Shown here: positions 47,091 to 49,839 of the stretch, in pieces | Layout of the letters: each line of letters opens with the position of its first letter | How positions within the stretch are numbered: position 1 is the stretch's first letter | Virus record (IMG/VR): IMGVR_UViG_3300010429_000979 | Location: 17,314 to 81,313 of that record | From: a virus | Taxonomy: Duplodnaviria > Caudoviricetes | Reading direction: 5' to 3' (one strand) | DNA length: 64,000 nucleotides | Translations under genes and position numbers: made by a program | Notes under the pieces: model-generated | Seen by the model: only the letters and a program-made list of their open reading frames with translations | The model's database searches: none | What the model was told of the DNA's origin: nothing

Positions 47091-48248
47091 ATGTATAACA
47101 AAACACTATACCGGCTTACAAAGTTGGATCAAATCCAGGTATTTCATATCTGGGTTGATGGGTTAACAAACACCCTGCATTCATCAAAGGGACATCTTGG
47201 AGGTGCCCAACAGGAGGATGCTAAAATCTTCCACGAGGGTAAAAACATTGGGAGGGCAAATGAAACATCTGCCTATGAACAGGCAATTTCAGAAGCCAAA
47301 TCAATGTTCAATAAGCTTCTCGATAAAGGTTATAAAGAAGAACCATTCAACATCGAAACAGCAGATGACAGGGCTGATCTTTGGTCATTCCTAAAGAAGC
47401 ATCAAGGAAAGGATGCTTCGGGTAATCTTCGCCCAATGCTGGCTCAGAAAAAACTGAAGATTACCAAATGGCCCGTCTACGTCCAAAGGAAATACGATGG
47501 TATCAGATCATTCTCAAGAATGGATGCTGATGGTGATATCCATGTTACTTCCCGCAATGGAAAGGAATTCGACTCACTCGACCATATCAAAGAATCCCTT
47601 AAACTCATTTACCCTTACGATAAAAACGTAGGTATCGTAAATGACACAGATATCATTGATGGTGAACTCTTTACCACATCCACTGATTTTCAGGGTATTG
47701 TCTCTGCAGTGAAAAGGAAACAAGAATCCAGTAAAAGGATAAAACTCAGGGTATACGATATAGGGTGTAATTTACCACAATCATATCGAATGGGGCTTAT
47801 CATGGGGTTCAGGGAAGAACTGGATATTCCAAACATCGAATTCGTTGAGACCTTCATTTGCTCAACTATGGAAAAGATTCTCGAATATCATGCCCAATTC
47901 ATTGCTGAAGGATACGAGGGAACTATGGTAAGGACCATGGATGGGCGCTATGAATACGGGAAACGATCCTGGTCACTTATGAAATACAAGGACTTCGACG
48001 AGGACGAATTTGAACTCATCGGTATGGAGGAAGCAACTGGCCGTGATGCTGGAACTGCAATCTTCGTACTCTCAGATGGGAAGGTAACATTCAGGGCAAG
48101 GCCAATGGGTGACAGGGATGTAAGGGCGGCACTCTGGGATGATCAACATCACCAAATCGGTAGGATGGTTACAGTTAAATATCAAGGTAAATCAAATACG
48201 GGGGTCCCAAGATTCCCAGTTGCTAAAGGTTTCAGAGACTATGAGTAA
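47091..48248 (+). CDS. ATP-dependent DNA ligase
   Basis: Motif I QRKYDGIR, DGELF, GYEGTMVR and LMKYK; C-terminal PRFP. Confidence 0.93.
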   Translation: MYNKTLYRLTKLDQIQVFHIWVDGLTNTLHSSKGHLGGAQQEDAKIFHEGKNIGRANETSAYEQAISEAKSMFNKLLDKGYKEEPFNIETADDRADLWSFLKKHQGKDASGNLRPMLAQKKLKITKWPVYVQRKYDGIRSFSRMDADGDIHVTSRNGKEFDSLDHIKESLKLIYPYDKNVGIVNDTDIIDGELFTTSTDFQGIVSAVKRKQESSKRIKLRVYDIGCNLPQSYRMGLIMGFREELDIPNIEFVETFICSTMEKILEYHAQFIAEGYEGTMVRTMDGRYEYGKRSWSLMKYKDFDEDEFELIGMEEATGRDAGTAIFVLSDGKVTFRARPMGDRDVRAALWDDQHHQIGRMVTVKYQGKSNTGVPRFPVAKGFRDYE

Positions 48249-48327
48249 ATTCATAATTATCATCGTAATCCTAATATTCGTGATGGGCCTTGGTGGAAAC
48301 AAGGACAATGGCCCACGAATGGGATAA
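48241..48327 (+). CDS. Small membrane peptide (28 aa)
   Basis: MSKFIIIIVILIFVMGLGG...; overlaps the ligase stop. Confidence 0.35.
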   Translation: MSKFIIIIVILIFVMGLGGNKDNGPRMG

Positions 48328-48350
48328 AATCGGAAGTACTATTAATTAAA

Positions 48351-48630
48351 ATAATGATAGTTCAGCGAAGTATATCAAATAGGAGTTTCGGACCAGGGTT
48401 CGAATCCCTGCACCTCCACATTATTGAGGGAGTTAGGCTCAGGCAAACCTCCCTGCCGTTACTCGGGGGTGACAGGCTTTTGACGGGGCTCAGTAAGGGT
48501 ACATGGAGAACTATTATCGCCAATAACTGGCAACGCTTACCAAATGAAGGCAGCTGCTTAATTAAGCACCTGTTTTCACCATGCTGGCAGACCATGGCCA
48601 TAGTCTGCCTCCCTTCGGGGATAAACAAGG
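48351..48630 (+). ncRNA. ssrA: Circularly permuted two-piece tmRNA
   Basis: Acceptor piece: GAGTTTC-GGAC, T-arm CAGGG-TTCGAAT-CCCTG (48394-48410), CACCTCC-A (48411-48418). Spacer: 46 nt. Coding piece: GGGGGTG (48465-48471) pairs with CACCTCC giving G3-U70; GGGGCTC pairs with GAGTTTC; GAACTATTAT (48508-48517) pairs with ATGATAGTTC (48354-48363); ATAACT-GGC resume site; tag GNAYQMKAAA-TAA (48529-48561). Confidence 0.92.
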
Positions 48631-48651
48631 AAATACTATTAAATATAAAAT

Positions 48652-49146
48652 ATGCAAACATTTCTCCCATACCCTAATTTCGAGGATTCAGTTAGAACCC
48701 TAGATAACAAGCGCTTAGGAAAACAAAGGGTTGAAGCTAAGCAATTACTAGACATTGTCGAAGGCCGTACCACTTCCTGGGCCAACCACCCTGCCGCTAA
48801 GATGTGGATGGGTTGTCCAGATGCCCTGAAATGGTACCTTTATTCCTGTATTACTGAATGGGAAAGGCGGGGATTCAACAACACGATGGCTAAACCATTT
48901 TTAACTTCTAATGACACTCCATACCCCTGGTGGCTTGGTGATGATGATTTCCACCGAACACATAGGGCAAGGCTACTTGAAAAGGATTTTAACCATTATC
49001 ATAAACTCTTTCCGGGAGATTGGCGATTTAACCAAGGCCTTTATATCTGGCCGGTAATGGAAACTCAAACATTCGAAATCATCATACCTAAAAAGGAAAA
49101 GAATTTAATCGATAAATCAAGACTCTTAAATTATCCGACACGATGA
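48652..49146 (+). CDS. Pyrimidine-dimer DNA glycosylase family protein (MSMEG_6728/DenV-like)
   Basis: MQTFLPY...LDNKRLGKQRVEAKQ...WANHPAAKMW signature. Confidence 0.82.
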   Translation: MQTFLPYPNFEDSVRTLDNKRLGKQRVEAKQLLDIVEGRTTSWANHPAAKMWMGCPDALKWYLYSCITEWERRGFNNTMAKPFLTSNDTPYPWWLGDDDFHRTHRARLLEKDFNHYHKLFPGDWRFNQGLYIWPVMETQTFEIIIPKKEKNLIDKSRLLNYPTR

Positions 49147-49322
49147 ACGCAAAAGAAAGGAAAGAACAACACGACAAGAACTACAAAAAGGCCAAAGAAA
49201 TTAGGGTGAAAATCCAAAAGGGCCAACCCACCACATTCCAAGAAAGGAACGTGATGAAAATCATTGAAAAGAAACTCAAAAAAGAAAAAGCCTTAAAAAA
49301 TGGCCAGAAACAAGGATCCTAA
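49143..49322 (+). CDS. Small basic hypothetical protein (59 aa)
   Basis: ATG overlaps the upstream stop; below the ORF-track cutoff. Confidence 0.45.
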   Translation: MNAKERKEQHDKNYKKAKEIRVKIQKGQPTTFQERNVMKIIEKKLKKEKALKNGQKQGS

Positions 49323-49839
49323 GGGGTTTGTTATTTCTAATGCCCAATCAGCATTACAGAAGCTAACCCTCCCAAACCTCAAACGACACTGTATCGTAAG
49401 GGGGATGCTGTTTGAAGACGTGGGAAATAAATCTATCCTCCAACTTCAATCATGGCTCATTCACCATTTCGATATGGATATCCATCCGGAAAAACTGGAT
49501 GAATACGATGACTGGGCTGATGCCTTACTTAAAAGCCGTAACGTGGATGAAACATTCCTCAACGCGGCTTTTAGGTTGGGCCATGTGGCTGAAAGGGATG
49601 AAGAAGGTAACGTTACCAAGGTAAAGCAGGTAAGGGGTATCAAGAAAAAGAAGAAAAGAAGAGAAAGGACCCAGGAAGGTATCTTTTCTGGAACTAAAAA
49701 AGCCTATACTGTGGAATTACAGAAACAGGGTCTTTCAAAGGCAGATGTAACTGAAATGGTAAAGGCAAAATTCCCAGATGCCAAGGATAAGTCCATCTCT
49801 ATTTGGTTTAACAAAGCTAAGAAAGGGACATTAAGATAA
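49300..49839 (+). CDS. Hypothetical protein, possible C-terminal HTH
   Basis: 179-aa ORF; basic C-terminal helical domain. Confidence 0.55.
   Translation: MARNKDPKGFVISNAQSALQKLTLPNLKRHCIVRGMLFEDVGNKSILQLQSWLIHHFDMDIHPEKLDEYDDWADALLKSRNVDETFLNAAFRLGHVAERDEEGNVTKVKQVRGIKKKKKRRERTQEGIFSGTKKAYTVELQKQGLSKADVTEMVKAKFPDAKDKSISIWFNKAKKGTLR

What the first reader, a model, noticed from the sequence alone, without database searches (positions are those of the whole stretch)
48351..48630. Phage-encoded circularly permuted (two-piece) tmRNA
Seen: the tmRNA 3' end (GAGTTTC-GGAC, perfect T-arm, CACCTCC-A) lies upstream of its 5' end (GGGGGTG-ACAGGCTTTTGAC-GGGGCTC), separated by a 46-nt spacer with an AGGGAG/CTCCCT hairpin. 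The halves form a 7-bp acceptor stem with the alanine identity pair G3-U70 and two further helices (48485-48491 with 48383-48389; 48508-48517 with 48354-48363). A tag frame follows the ATAACT-G resume context. There is no room for an unpermuted copy, because the ligase CDS lies upstream and no second T-arm lies downstream. CCA is not fully encoded. Established: permuted tmRNAs occur in alphaproteobacteria, some betaproteobacteria, marine cyanobacteria and some mitochondria, and some phages carry one-piece tmRNAs. I am not aware of a permuted one in a Bacteroidota phage. Inference: an independent permutation or cross-phylum capture that supplies ribosome rescue during infection using host SmpB, RNase P, CCA enzyme and AlaRS, possibly countering tRNA/mRNA-cleaving defences.
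Basis: partly seen in the sequence, partly recalled or inferred. Interest (0 to 1): 0.95.

Follow-up and report, generated by a model that had tools for sequence, protein, structure and literature searches.

The report
Compact two-piece tmRNA in phage
This complete 81-kb phage, probably of a gut Bacteroidota host, carries a real "back-to-front" (two-piece) gene for tmRNA, the ribosome-rescue RNA, but the same compact form is already annotated in other Bacteroidota-type phages, so it is sound rather than new.

Summary
ARAGORN calls a permuted tmRNA at 48329-48652 (+) with tag GNAYQMKAAA. Rfam's tmRNA_permuted model (RF04321) scores 68.4 bits against a cut-off of 47.

I found 13 distinct homologues in viral, metagenome and GenBank phage DNA. 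All keep G3.U70. All place the resume codon 60-66 nt from the 5' end, against 83-102 nt in bacterial tmRNAs, so pseudoknot 1 is missing. Their two pieces pair far better with their own partner than with others' (-18.7 vs -11.3 kcal/mol, permutation p <= 5e-5). The tag varies mostly by synonymous or conservative changes.

The novelty claim fails. Phage two-piece tmRNAs are published (Melnitz paper: 53 forms). The same compact form is annotated as tmRNA in Chryseobacterium phage MA9V-3 and crAss-like phage cr273_1. This scan has also reported this compact "Bacteroidota-type, no pk1" family several times on other DNA.

No alpha, beta or cyano lineage model reaches its cut-off, but the origin stays unresolved. 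A Bacteroidota host is likely (Shine-Dalgarno motifs in 4% of genes, as in known Bacteroidota phages) but unproven. The gene lies in a variable slot, together with denV, behind a phage promoter-like motif. Function was not tested.

The parts
48337..48344 (+). TACTATTA promoter-like motif just upstream of the acceptor piece
   Evidence: 10 exact copies in the window, all on the + strand, against 3.3 expected on both strands. Most lie 18-27 nt before start codons. Here it precedes a non-coding gene.
48354..48418 (+). Acceptor piece. P2 strands 48354-48363, 48370-48373 and 48383-48389; GGAC 48390-48393; T arm 48394-48410; acceptor 3' strand 48411-48417; discriminator A 48418.
   Evidence: RF04321 alignment, ARAGORN 3' tRNA domain, cofold.
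48419..48464 (+). 46-nt intervening segment, presumed to be removed during maturation, with hairpin 48427-48432 / 48449-48454. The CCA position reads CAT.
   Evidence: Sequence. Spacer length ranges from 17 to 173 nt in homologues.
48465..48528 (+). 5' part of the coding piece. Acceptor 5' strand 48465-48471; D-loop analogue 48472-48484; P2 strands 48485-48491, 48499-48502 and 48508-48517; resume context ATAACT 48523-48528. There is no room for pseudoknot 1.
   Evidence: The 5' end lies 64 nt from the resume codon, against 83-102 nt in bacterial tmRNAs.
48529..48561 (+). Tag reading frame GNAYQMKAAA plus stop
   Evidence: ARAGORN. Close homologues encode GNTYQMRAAA and GNNYEMRAAA, differing mostly by synonymous or conservative changes.
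48545..48621 (+). 3' structured tail. Hairpin 48545-48578 with the stop codon at its loop; candidate H-type pseudoknot (48579-48583 / 48593-48597 and 48586-48592 / 48603-48609); UUCG hairpin 48610-48621.
   Evidence: strand folding gives -32.8 kcal/mol, z = -1.97. The pseudoknot is read from the sequence only. No terminator-like site was found.
48634..49146 (+). Second TACTATTA motif (48634-48641) and denV-like pyrimidine-dimer glycosylase gene (48652-49146), co-resident cargo in the same variable slot
   Evidence: PF03013, E 1.1e-22; motif; slot comparison.

Best explanation
This is a functional phage copy of tmRNA in two-piece form.

Inferred steps:
- Transcription starts at the TACTATTA motif near 48350 and yields one precursor.
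- The tRNA-like domain forms between 48394-48418 and 48465-48484.
- Host RNase P cuts before G48465.
- The 46-nt spacer is trimmed back to A48418.
- The host CCA-adding enzyme completes the 3' end.
- Host AlaRS charges the RNA through G3.U70, and host SmpB and EF-Tu deliver it to stalled ribosomes.
- Translation resumes at GGC 48529 and adds GNAYQMKAAA, which marks the nascent chain for host proteases and frees the ribosome.

Shown: the two RNAs can be held together by the acceptor stem and a three-part P2 helix.

The gene belongs to a compact family, carried by phages of Bacteroidota type, that lacks pseudoknot 1. Here it is accessory cargo in a variable genome slot. The likely benefit is keeping ribosomes available while host and phage mRNAs are being degraded.
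For: - Two independent detectors agree: ARAGORN and RF04321 at 68.4 bits against a cut-off of 47.
- 13 further distinct homologues were found. All keep G3.U70. Neighbouring acceptor and T-stem pairs change on both sides, for example GGGCGTG/CACGTCC and GGGTGTG/CACATCC.
- RF04321 passes its cut-off in 9 of 13 relatives scanned.
- Cofold gives the same three-helix P2 layout in 12 of 13 family members, the window included.
- Own-partner duplexes average -18.7 kcal/mol against -11.3 for foreign partners. The own partner is best in 10 of 14 rows and 11 of 14 columns, permutation p <= 5e-5.
- The tag is constrained as a peptide. WIN and L238 differ at 5 codons: 3 synonymous, 1 K/R and 1 A/T.
- The stop codon sits at a hairpin loop, as in tmRNA helix 5.
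- The gene has its own promoter-like motif.
- It is identical in a second assembly; the neighbouring ligase is recorded on 12 contigs.
- The phage has no SmpB.
Against: - There is no expression, processing, charging or tagging data.
- Pseudoknot 1, present in nearly all studied tmRNAs, is absent.
- CCA is not encoded.
- The tag ends in AAA, whereas the sampled Bacteroidota-phylum hosts end in LAA or MAA.
- The 3' end of the coding piece is undefined, and no terminator-like site was found.
- Sister phages with 48% ligase identity lack the gene, so it is dispensable.
- The host is inferred, not known.
Confidence: 0.8

Rival explanations
1. The RNA acts as a decoy or modulator of host trans-translation. 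Its tRNA-like domain would titrate SmpB or AlaRS and so inhibit host tmRNA, rather than rescue ribosomes, as proposed for the TLD-only gene of mycobacteriophage DS6A.
For: - A TLD-only phage form that inhibits tmRNA is described in the literature (PMC4131195, PMC11915505).
- This family is stripped down, with no pseudoknot 1.
- The phage supplies no SmpB.
Against: - A complete resume context and tag frame are kept in all 14 family members.
- Close relatives differ by synonymous and conservative codon changes. A pure decoy would not need that.
Confidence: 0.1
2. It is a decaying relic: a captured tmRNA gene that has lost pseudoknot 1 and its CCA and is no longer functional in this phage.
For: - Sister phages lack it.
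- The tag has an unusual AAA end.
- CCA is not encoded.
Against: - The compact layout is shared by 14 divergent sequences whose P2 strands vary together.
- G3.U70 is invariant.
- The gene is identical in an independent assembly of this phage.
- A cultured Chryseobacterium phage keeps the same form.
Confidence: 0.06
3. It is not an RNA gene. Either the 107-aa (+) or the 102-aa (-) open frame over 48354-48677 is a protein gene, or the tRNA-like parts are an attachment-site remnant of integration into host ssrA.
For: Both open frames exist. tmRNA genes are common integration sites (PMC11915505).
Against: - Neither frame has a PHROG match.
- Gene callers left this stretch empty in the identical contig.
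- An attachment-site remnant would hold only the 3' end of a host tmRNA. Here both halves are present, in permuted order, with co-varying pairing.
- The compact form was not found in 185,579 species genomes with the search pattern used.
Confidence: 0.02

Closest known systems
tmRNA genes annotated in Chryseobacterium phage MA9V-3 (PV245944.1, 22766-23124) and crAss-like phage cr273_1 (NC_055904.1, 35492-35861)
   Same: - Permuted gene order: ARAGORN 'tmRNA*' in both; RF04321 at 64.7 bits in MA9V-3.
- G3.U70.
- 62 and 65 nt from the 5' end to the resume codon, so no pseudoknot 1.
- Tags start with Gly-Asn.
- cr273_1 shares the exact ATAACT|GGCAAC resume context.
- Hosts are Bacteroidota (cultured for MA9V-3) or Crassvirales-type.

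   Different: - Different phage lineages and tags (GNVIDINKYVAKLEVAA, GNINVVDYTGLQEAA).
- cr273_1 does not reach the RF04321 cut-off.
- In cr273_1 the gene lies beside tRNA genes, while this phage has none.
- The records do not say that the gene is permuted or compact.
Phage-encoded two-piece tmRNAs of aquatic myophages (OM43 phage Melnitz, pelagimyophages; PMC9004378)
   Same: A phage-borne, permuted ssrA used with host factors. That paper counted 53 two-piece forms among 133 unique phage tmRNAs.
   Different: - Those are alpha-type and pass RF01849, as do my examples L009, L010 and L013.
- Bacterial alpha-type genes place the resume codon 83-87 nt from the 5' end.
- Melnitz adds a glutamine riboswitch.
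- They are mostly marine.
Bacterial two-piece tmRNAs of Alphaproteobacteria, a betaproteobacterial lineage and marine cyanobacteria (Keiler et al. 2000; Sharkady and Williams 2004; Rfam RF01849, RF01850, RF01851)
   Same: Circular permutation. The acceptor piece precedes the coding piece, and the pieces are held together by the acceptor stem and P2.
   Different: - The best lineage model here is beta, at 42.5 bits over the tRNA-like domain only (cut-off 84).
- No lineage model passes in any of the family members scanned.
- Pseudoknot 1 is absent.
- The resume codon is GGC (Gly), not GCN (Ala).
One-piece tmRNA of the Bacteroidota phylum (sampled from GTDB genomes)
   Same: Tags start with Gly (GENNYALAA, GNTQYAMAA, GNYNVALAA). 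The resume context in some is (A/C)TAACT|GGC. The 5' domain shows a GGTTTTGAC motif.
   Different: - One-piece, 350-400 nt, with the resume codon 89-102 nt from the 5' end.
- Overall identity of the tRNA-like domain does not single out this group.

Membership tests
tmRNA (SsrA), permuted form (Rfam RF04321) | Covariance-model score at or above the curated cut-off | tested here: met
   68.4 bits against 47, full model 1-213. ARAGORN reports 'tmRNA*'.
tmRNA (SsrA), permuted form (Rfam RF04321) | 7-bp acceptor stem with G3.U70, discriminator A and a canonical T arm | tested here: met
   48465-48471 pairs with 48411-48417; A at 48418; T loop TTCGAAT. G3.U70 is kept in all 14 family members.
tmRNA (SsrA), permuted form (Rfam RF04321) | Acceptor piece upstream of the coding piece, with the pieces joined by P2 pairing | tested here: met
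   Gene order is read from the sequence. P2 cofold z = -3.0. Own-partner against foreign-partner test gives p <= 5e-5.
tmRNA (SsrA), permuted form (Rfam RF04321) | Resume codon and short tag frame ending in Ala-Ala plus a stop | tested here: met
   GNAYQMKAAA* at 48529-48561. Peptide-level conservation in L238 and L146.
tmRNA (SsrA), permuted form (Rfam RF04321) | Encoded 3' CCA | tested here: not met
   The position reads CAT. Only 3 of 13 family members listed encode CCA. CCA addition by the host enzyme is assumed. This is not a strict family requirement.
tmRNA (SsrA), permuted form (Rfam RF04321) | Pseudoknot 1 between P2 and the resume codon | tested here: not met
   Only 11 nt separate the distal P2 helix from the resume codon. 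The model's pk1 hairpin positions are deleted in the alignment. The 5' end lies 64 nt from the resume codon, against 83-102 nt.
tmRNA (SsrA), permuted form (Rfam RF04321) | Alanylation, SmpB binding and tagging activity | not testable with these tools
   No SmpB in the phage. Host factors are assumed.
Alpha, beta or cyano two-piece lineages (RF01849, RF01850, RF01851) | Lineage-specific model at or above its cut-off | tested here: not met
   Best is beta_tmRNA at 42.5 bits (cut-off 84), covering positions 73-172 only; lower overlapping clan matches were dropped. None passes in the window or in 13 relatives.
Compact pk1-less two-piece tmRNA of Bacteroidota-type phages (unnamed; MA9V-3 and cr273_1 types) | Permuted order, 60-66 nt from 5' end to resume codon, Gly resume codon, three-part P2 | tested here: met
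   64 nt; ATAACT|GGC; same helix layout as 11 of 12 other family members folded. The ATAACT|GGCAA context was part of my search pattern, so its sharing is by construction, except in MA9V-3.

The most novel reading that the evidence does not exclude
The gene belongs to a further, phage-borne lineage of two-piece tmRNA that has not been described in the papers I could search. This lineage would have arisen by its own permutation of a Bacteroidota-type one-piece tmRNA and would work without pseudoknot 1. That would show that nature tolerates loss of a pseudoknot present in almost all tmRNAs.
Probability: 0.35. Interest if true: 0.5.

Novelty: new member of a known kind. Interest (0 to 1): 0.3.

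Why it matters
The value is mainly for annotation. Gut and Bacteroidota-type phages carry a compact two-piece tmRNA that the lineage-specific Rfam models miss and that ARAGORN misses in many members. Public records that do hold it call it simply "tmRNA".

If the family is shown to be active, it is a natural minimal tmRNA of about 220 nt in two pieces, with no pseudoknot 1. That would be useful for structure and function work on trans-translation. It would also suggest that phages of SD-poor hosts need extra ribosome rescue.

This one instance adds little beyond the family already seen in public records and in earlier reports of this scan.

Tried and rejected
- **BLAST against GenBank phages.** blastn of the gene found nothing useful. 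It is too short and divergent. One search did give the cr273_1 lead.
- **Close-relative search.** An exact 23-mer scan and a ligase-based search of viral contigs found no close relatives.
- **First gapped pattern.** It was too loose and gave 118 or more chance hits. The reverse-complement pattern with both anchors worked.
- **GTDB species genomes.** The pattern scan gave 27 hits, all chance, none a tmRNA. I did not find this compact form in bacterial genomes with that pattern. It required the exact resume motif, so absence is not shown.
- **RNAalifold.** Run on a MAFFT alignment of re-joined halves, it recovered only the acceptor and T stems, because the P2 strands do not align by sequence. 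I replaced it with per-sequence cofold and the own-partner against foreign-partner energy test.
- **Origin of the tRNA-like domain.** Identity of its 5' part, 3' part and resume region to Bacteroidota-phylum, Bacillota_A and alpha two-piece samples did not resolve the origin. For the window's gene all groups scored 0.66-0.77 on the 5' part.
- **Missing comparison sets.** I could not sample beta or cyano two-piece genes. The genome labelled Hydrogenophaga gave alpha-type tags.
- **Rejected readings.** Integration-site remnant, protein-coding gene and unpermuted copy were considered and rejected.

Full report
**What is there**

The window is part of a complete 81,313-bp IMG/VR phage genome with direct terminal repeats. 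At 48329-48652 (+), ARAGORN calls one permuted tmRNA with tag GNAYQMKAAA. It finds no other tRNA-like gene in the genome. Rfam's tmRNA_permuted model (RF04321) matches 48359-48561 end to end at 68.4 bits, against a cut-off of 47.

- T arm 48394-48410.
- Acceptor 3' strand 48411-48417 and discriminator A 48418, followed by CAT instead of CCA.
- A 46-nt spacer with a 6-bp hairpin.
- The 5' strand 48465-48471, giving a 7-bp stem with G3.U70.
- The resume context ATAACT|GGC.

These are 48383-48389 / 48485-48491 and 48354-48363 / 48508-48517. It adds a short middle helix, with z = -3.0 against shuffles.

Downstream, the stop codon sits at the loop of hairpin 48545-48578. A second hairpin follows that can form an H-type pseudoknot, and then a UUCG hairpin at 48610-48621.

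**Context**

The flanking genes are an ATP-dependent DNA ligase (47091-48248) and a denV-like glycosylase (48652-49146).

The octamer TACTATTA occurs 10 times in the window, always on the + strand, against 3.3 expected. One copy lies at 48337, just before the acceptor piece. Another lies at 48634, before denV. I read it as a phage promoter element; this is inference.

The ligase protein is recorded on 12 contigs, and the one fetched carries an identical tmRNA gene. Two sister phages with 48% ligase identity have no tmRNA in the 7-9 kb fetched around the ligase. In one of them the ligase is followed directly by the homologue (47% identity) of window gene 49300-49839. In the other, a single different gene lies between. 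So the tmRNA gene and denV are accessory cargo in a variable slot.

The phage encodes no SmpB.

**Relatives**

BLAST was too insensitive to find relatives. A pattern joining the 5' strand and the resume motif found true homologues in viral contigs and metagenome contigs. In GTDB species genomes it found only chance matches.

With Chryseobacterium phage MA9V-3 there are 14 distinct sequences, counting the window. Their properties:
- All keep G3.U70, while neighbouring acceptor and T-stem pairs change on both sides.
- The 5' end lies 60-66 nt from the resume codon in all of them.
- That distance is 83-87 nt in 40 alphaproteobacterial two-piece genes. It is 88-102 nt in nearly all of the 75 one-piece genes sampled from the Bacteroidota phylum and Bacillota_A; two ARAGORN calls fall outside that range.
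- The missing stretch corresponds to pseudoknot 1. The model's pk1 hairpin positions are deleted in the Rfam alignment.
- The same three-helix P2 layout is predicted in 12 of 13 members folded.
- Own-partner duplex energies average -18.7 kcal/mol against -11.3 for foreign partners, permutation p <= 5e-5. The two pieces therefore co-evolve to pair.
- The closest tags are GNTYQMRAAA (L238) and GNNYEMRAAA (L146). L238 differs from this one at five codons: three synonymous, one Lys/Arg and one Ala/Thr.

**What it is not**

Among the older lineage models, the best is beta_tmRNA at 42.5 bits, covering the tRNA-like domain only, against a cut-off of 84. Nine of 13 relatives pass RF04321, and none passes an alpha, beta or cyano model. 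By contrast, marine phage examples pass the alpha model and a Stenotrophomonas phage passes the beta model.

Sampled Bacteroidota-phylum one-piece tmRNAs share Gly-initial tags. Some also share the ATAACT|GGC context and a GGTTTTGAC 5' motif. Overall identity did not single them out for this gene. Bacillota_A also uses TAACT before its resume codon. The origin therefore stays open.

**Host**

Shine-Dalgarno 5-mers precede 4% of ORFs. Leaders are 9% G and 47% A. This is like Chryseobacterium phage MA9V-3 (0%; 10% G), crAss-like cr273_1 (1%; 14% G) and the nearest GenBank relative from human faeces (3%; 10% G). It is unlike a Stenotrophomonas phage (26%; 29% G).

The nearest GenBank phages are all uncultured, from human faeces. 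A Bacteroidota host is likely. I put it at about 0.7. It is not shown.

**Novelty**

- Two-piece phage tmRNAs are published. The Melnitz paper counts 53 two-piece forms among 133 unique phage tmRNAs (PMC9004378).
- The 2025 tmRNA database paper lists 79 phage sequences and 48 permuted genes in Bacteroidota genomes (PMC11915505).
- GenBank annotates a tmRNA in Chryseobacterium phage MA9V-3. It scores 64.7 bits on RF04321, ARAGORN calls it permuted, and its 5' end lies 62 nt from the resume codon.
- RefSeq annotates one in crAss-like cr273_1, which has the identical ATAACT|GGCAAC context.
- I found no paper that describes the compact pk1-less form.
- Earlier reports of this scan describe the same family on other DNA.

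**Verdict**

This is a real and probably functional gene. It is a new member of a kind already present in public records. Mechanism and function are inferred from the anatomy only.

Noticed in passing
window 27521-62394: TACTATTA occurs 10 times, all on the + strand (3.3 expected on both strands). It mostly lies 18-27 nt before start codons, which suggests a phage-specific promoter element. A GGAA(G/A)TACTATTAA direct repeat brackets the tmRNA gene (48332 and 48629).
   Followed up: partly
window 48249-49299; L006 5183-5199; L007 5139-5618: The slot between the ligase and the conserved 179-aa gene is variable among sister phages. It holds tmRNA plus denV plus a 59-aa ORF here, nothing in L006, and one unrelated 159-aa gene in L007.
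   Followed up: partly
L241 1846-2185: A family member carries an intact tRNA gene (1912-1985) inside the 173-nt intervening segment of its two-piece tmRNA gene.
   Followed up: no
L011 1626-1800; L012 3607-3781; L014 3-177; L008 804-965: This looks like another compact permuted tmRNA type, with the canonical tag ANDNFALAA (my reading of the frame). It sits inside the tRNA arrays of IMG/VR contigs of 20-176 kb. RF04321 passes (57-68 bits), but ARAGORN misses it or mis-calls the tag.
   Followed up: partly
L095 975-1156 and 11 similar IMG/VR contigs (L136-L152): These are near-identical compact two-piece tmRNA genes in 67-103 kb contigs. The T loop is non-canonical (GGCAGTA), the spacer is 17 nt, and the tag is GNTSYVMDYTGIAA. 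ARAGORN finds none of them; RF04321 gives 55.8 bits.
   Followed up: partly
L239 1235-1383 (-): A RAGATH-9 RNA (RF03146, 85.2 bits) lies on the same short metagenome contig as a family tmRNA gene.
   Followed up: no
L161/L256 (genome G106): A MAG labelled Hydrogenophaga intermedia carries an alphaproteobacterial-type two-piece tmRNA (tag ANDNNARVAVAA). Sampled genomes of its order have rhizobial-type tags, so the label or the binning looks doubtful.
   Followed up: no
window 48354-48677 (+) and 48362-48670 (-): Open frames of 107 and 102 codons run across the tmRNA gene on both strands. They have no family match and could be mis-called as genes.
   Followed up: yes
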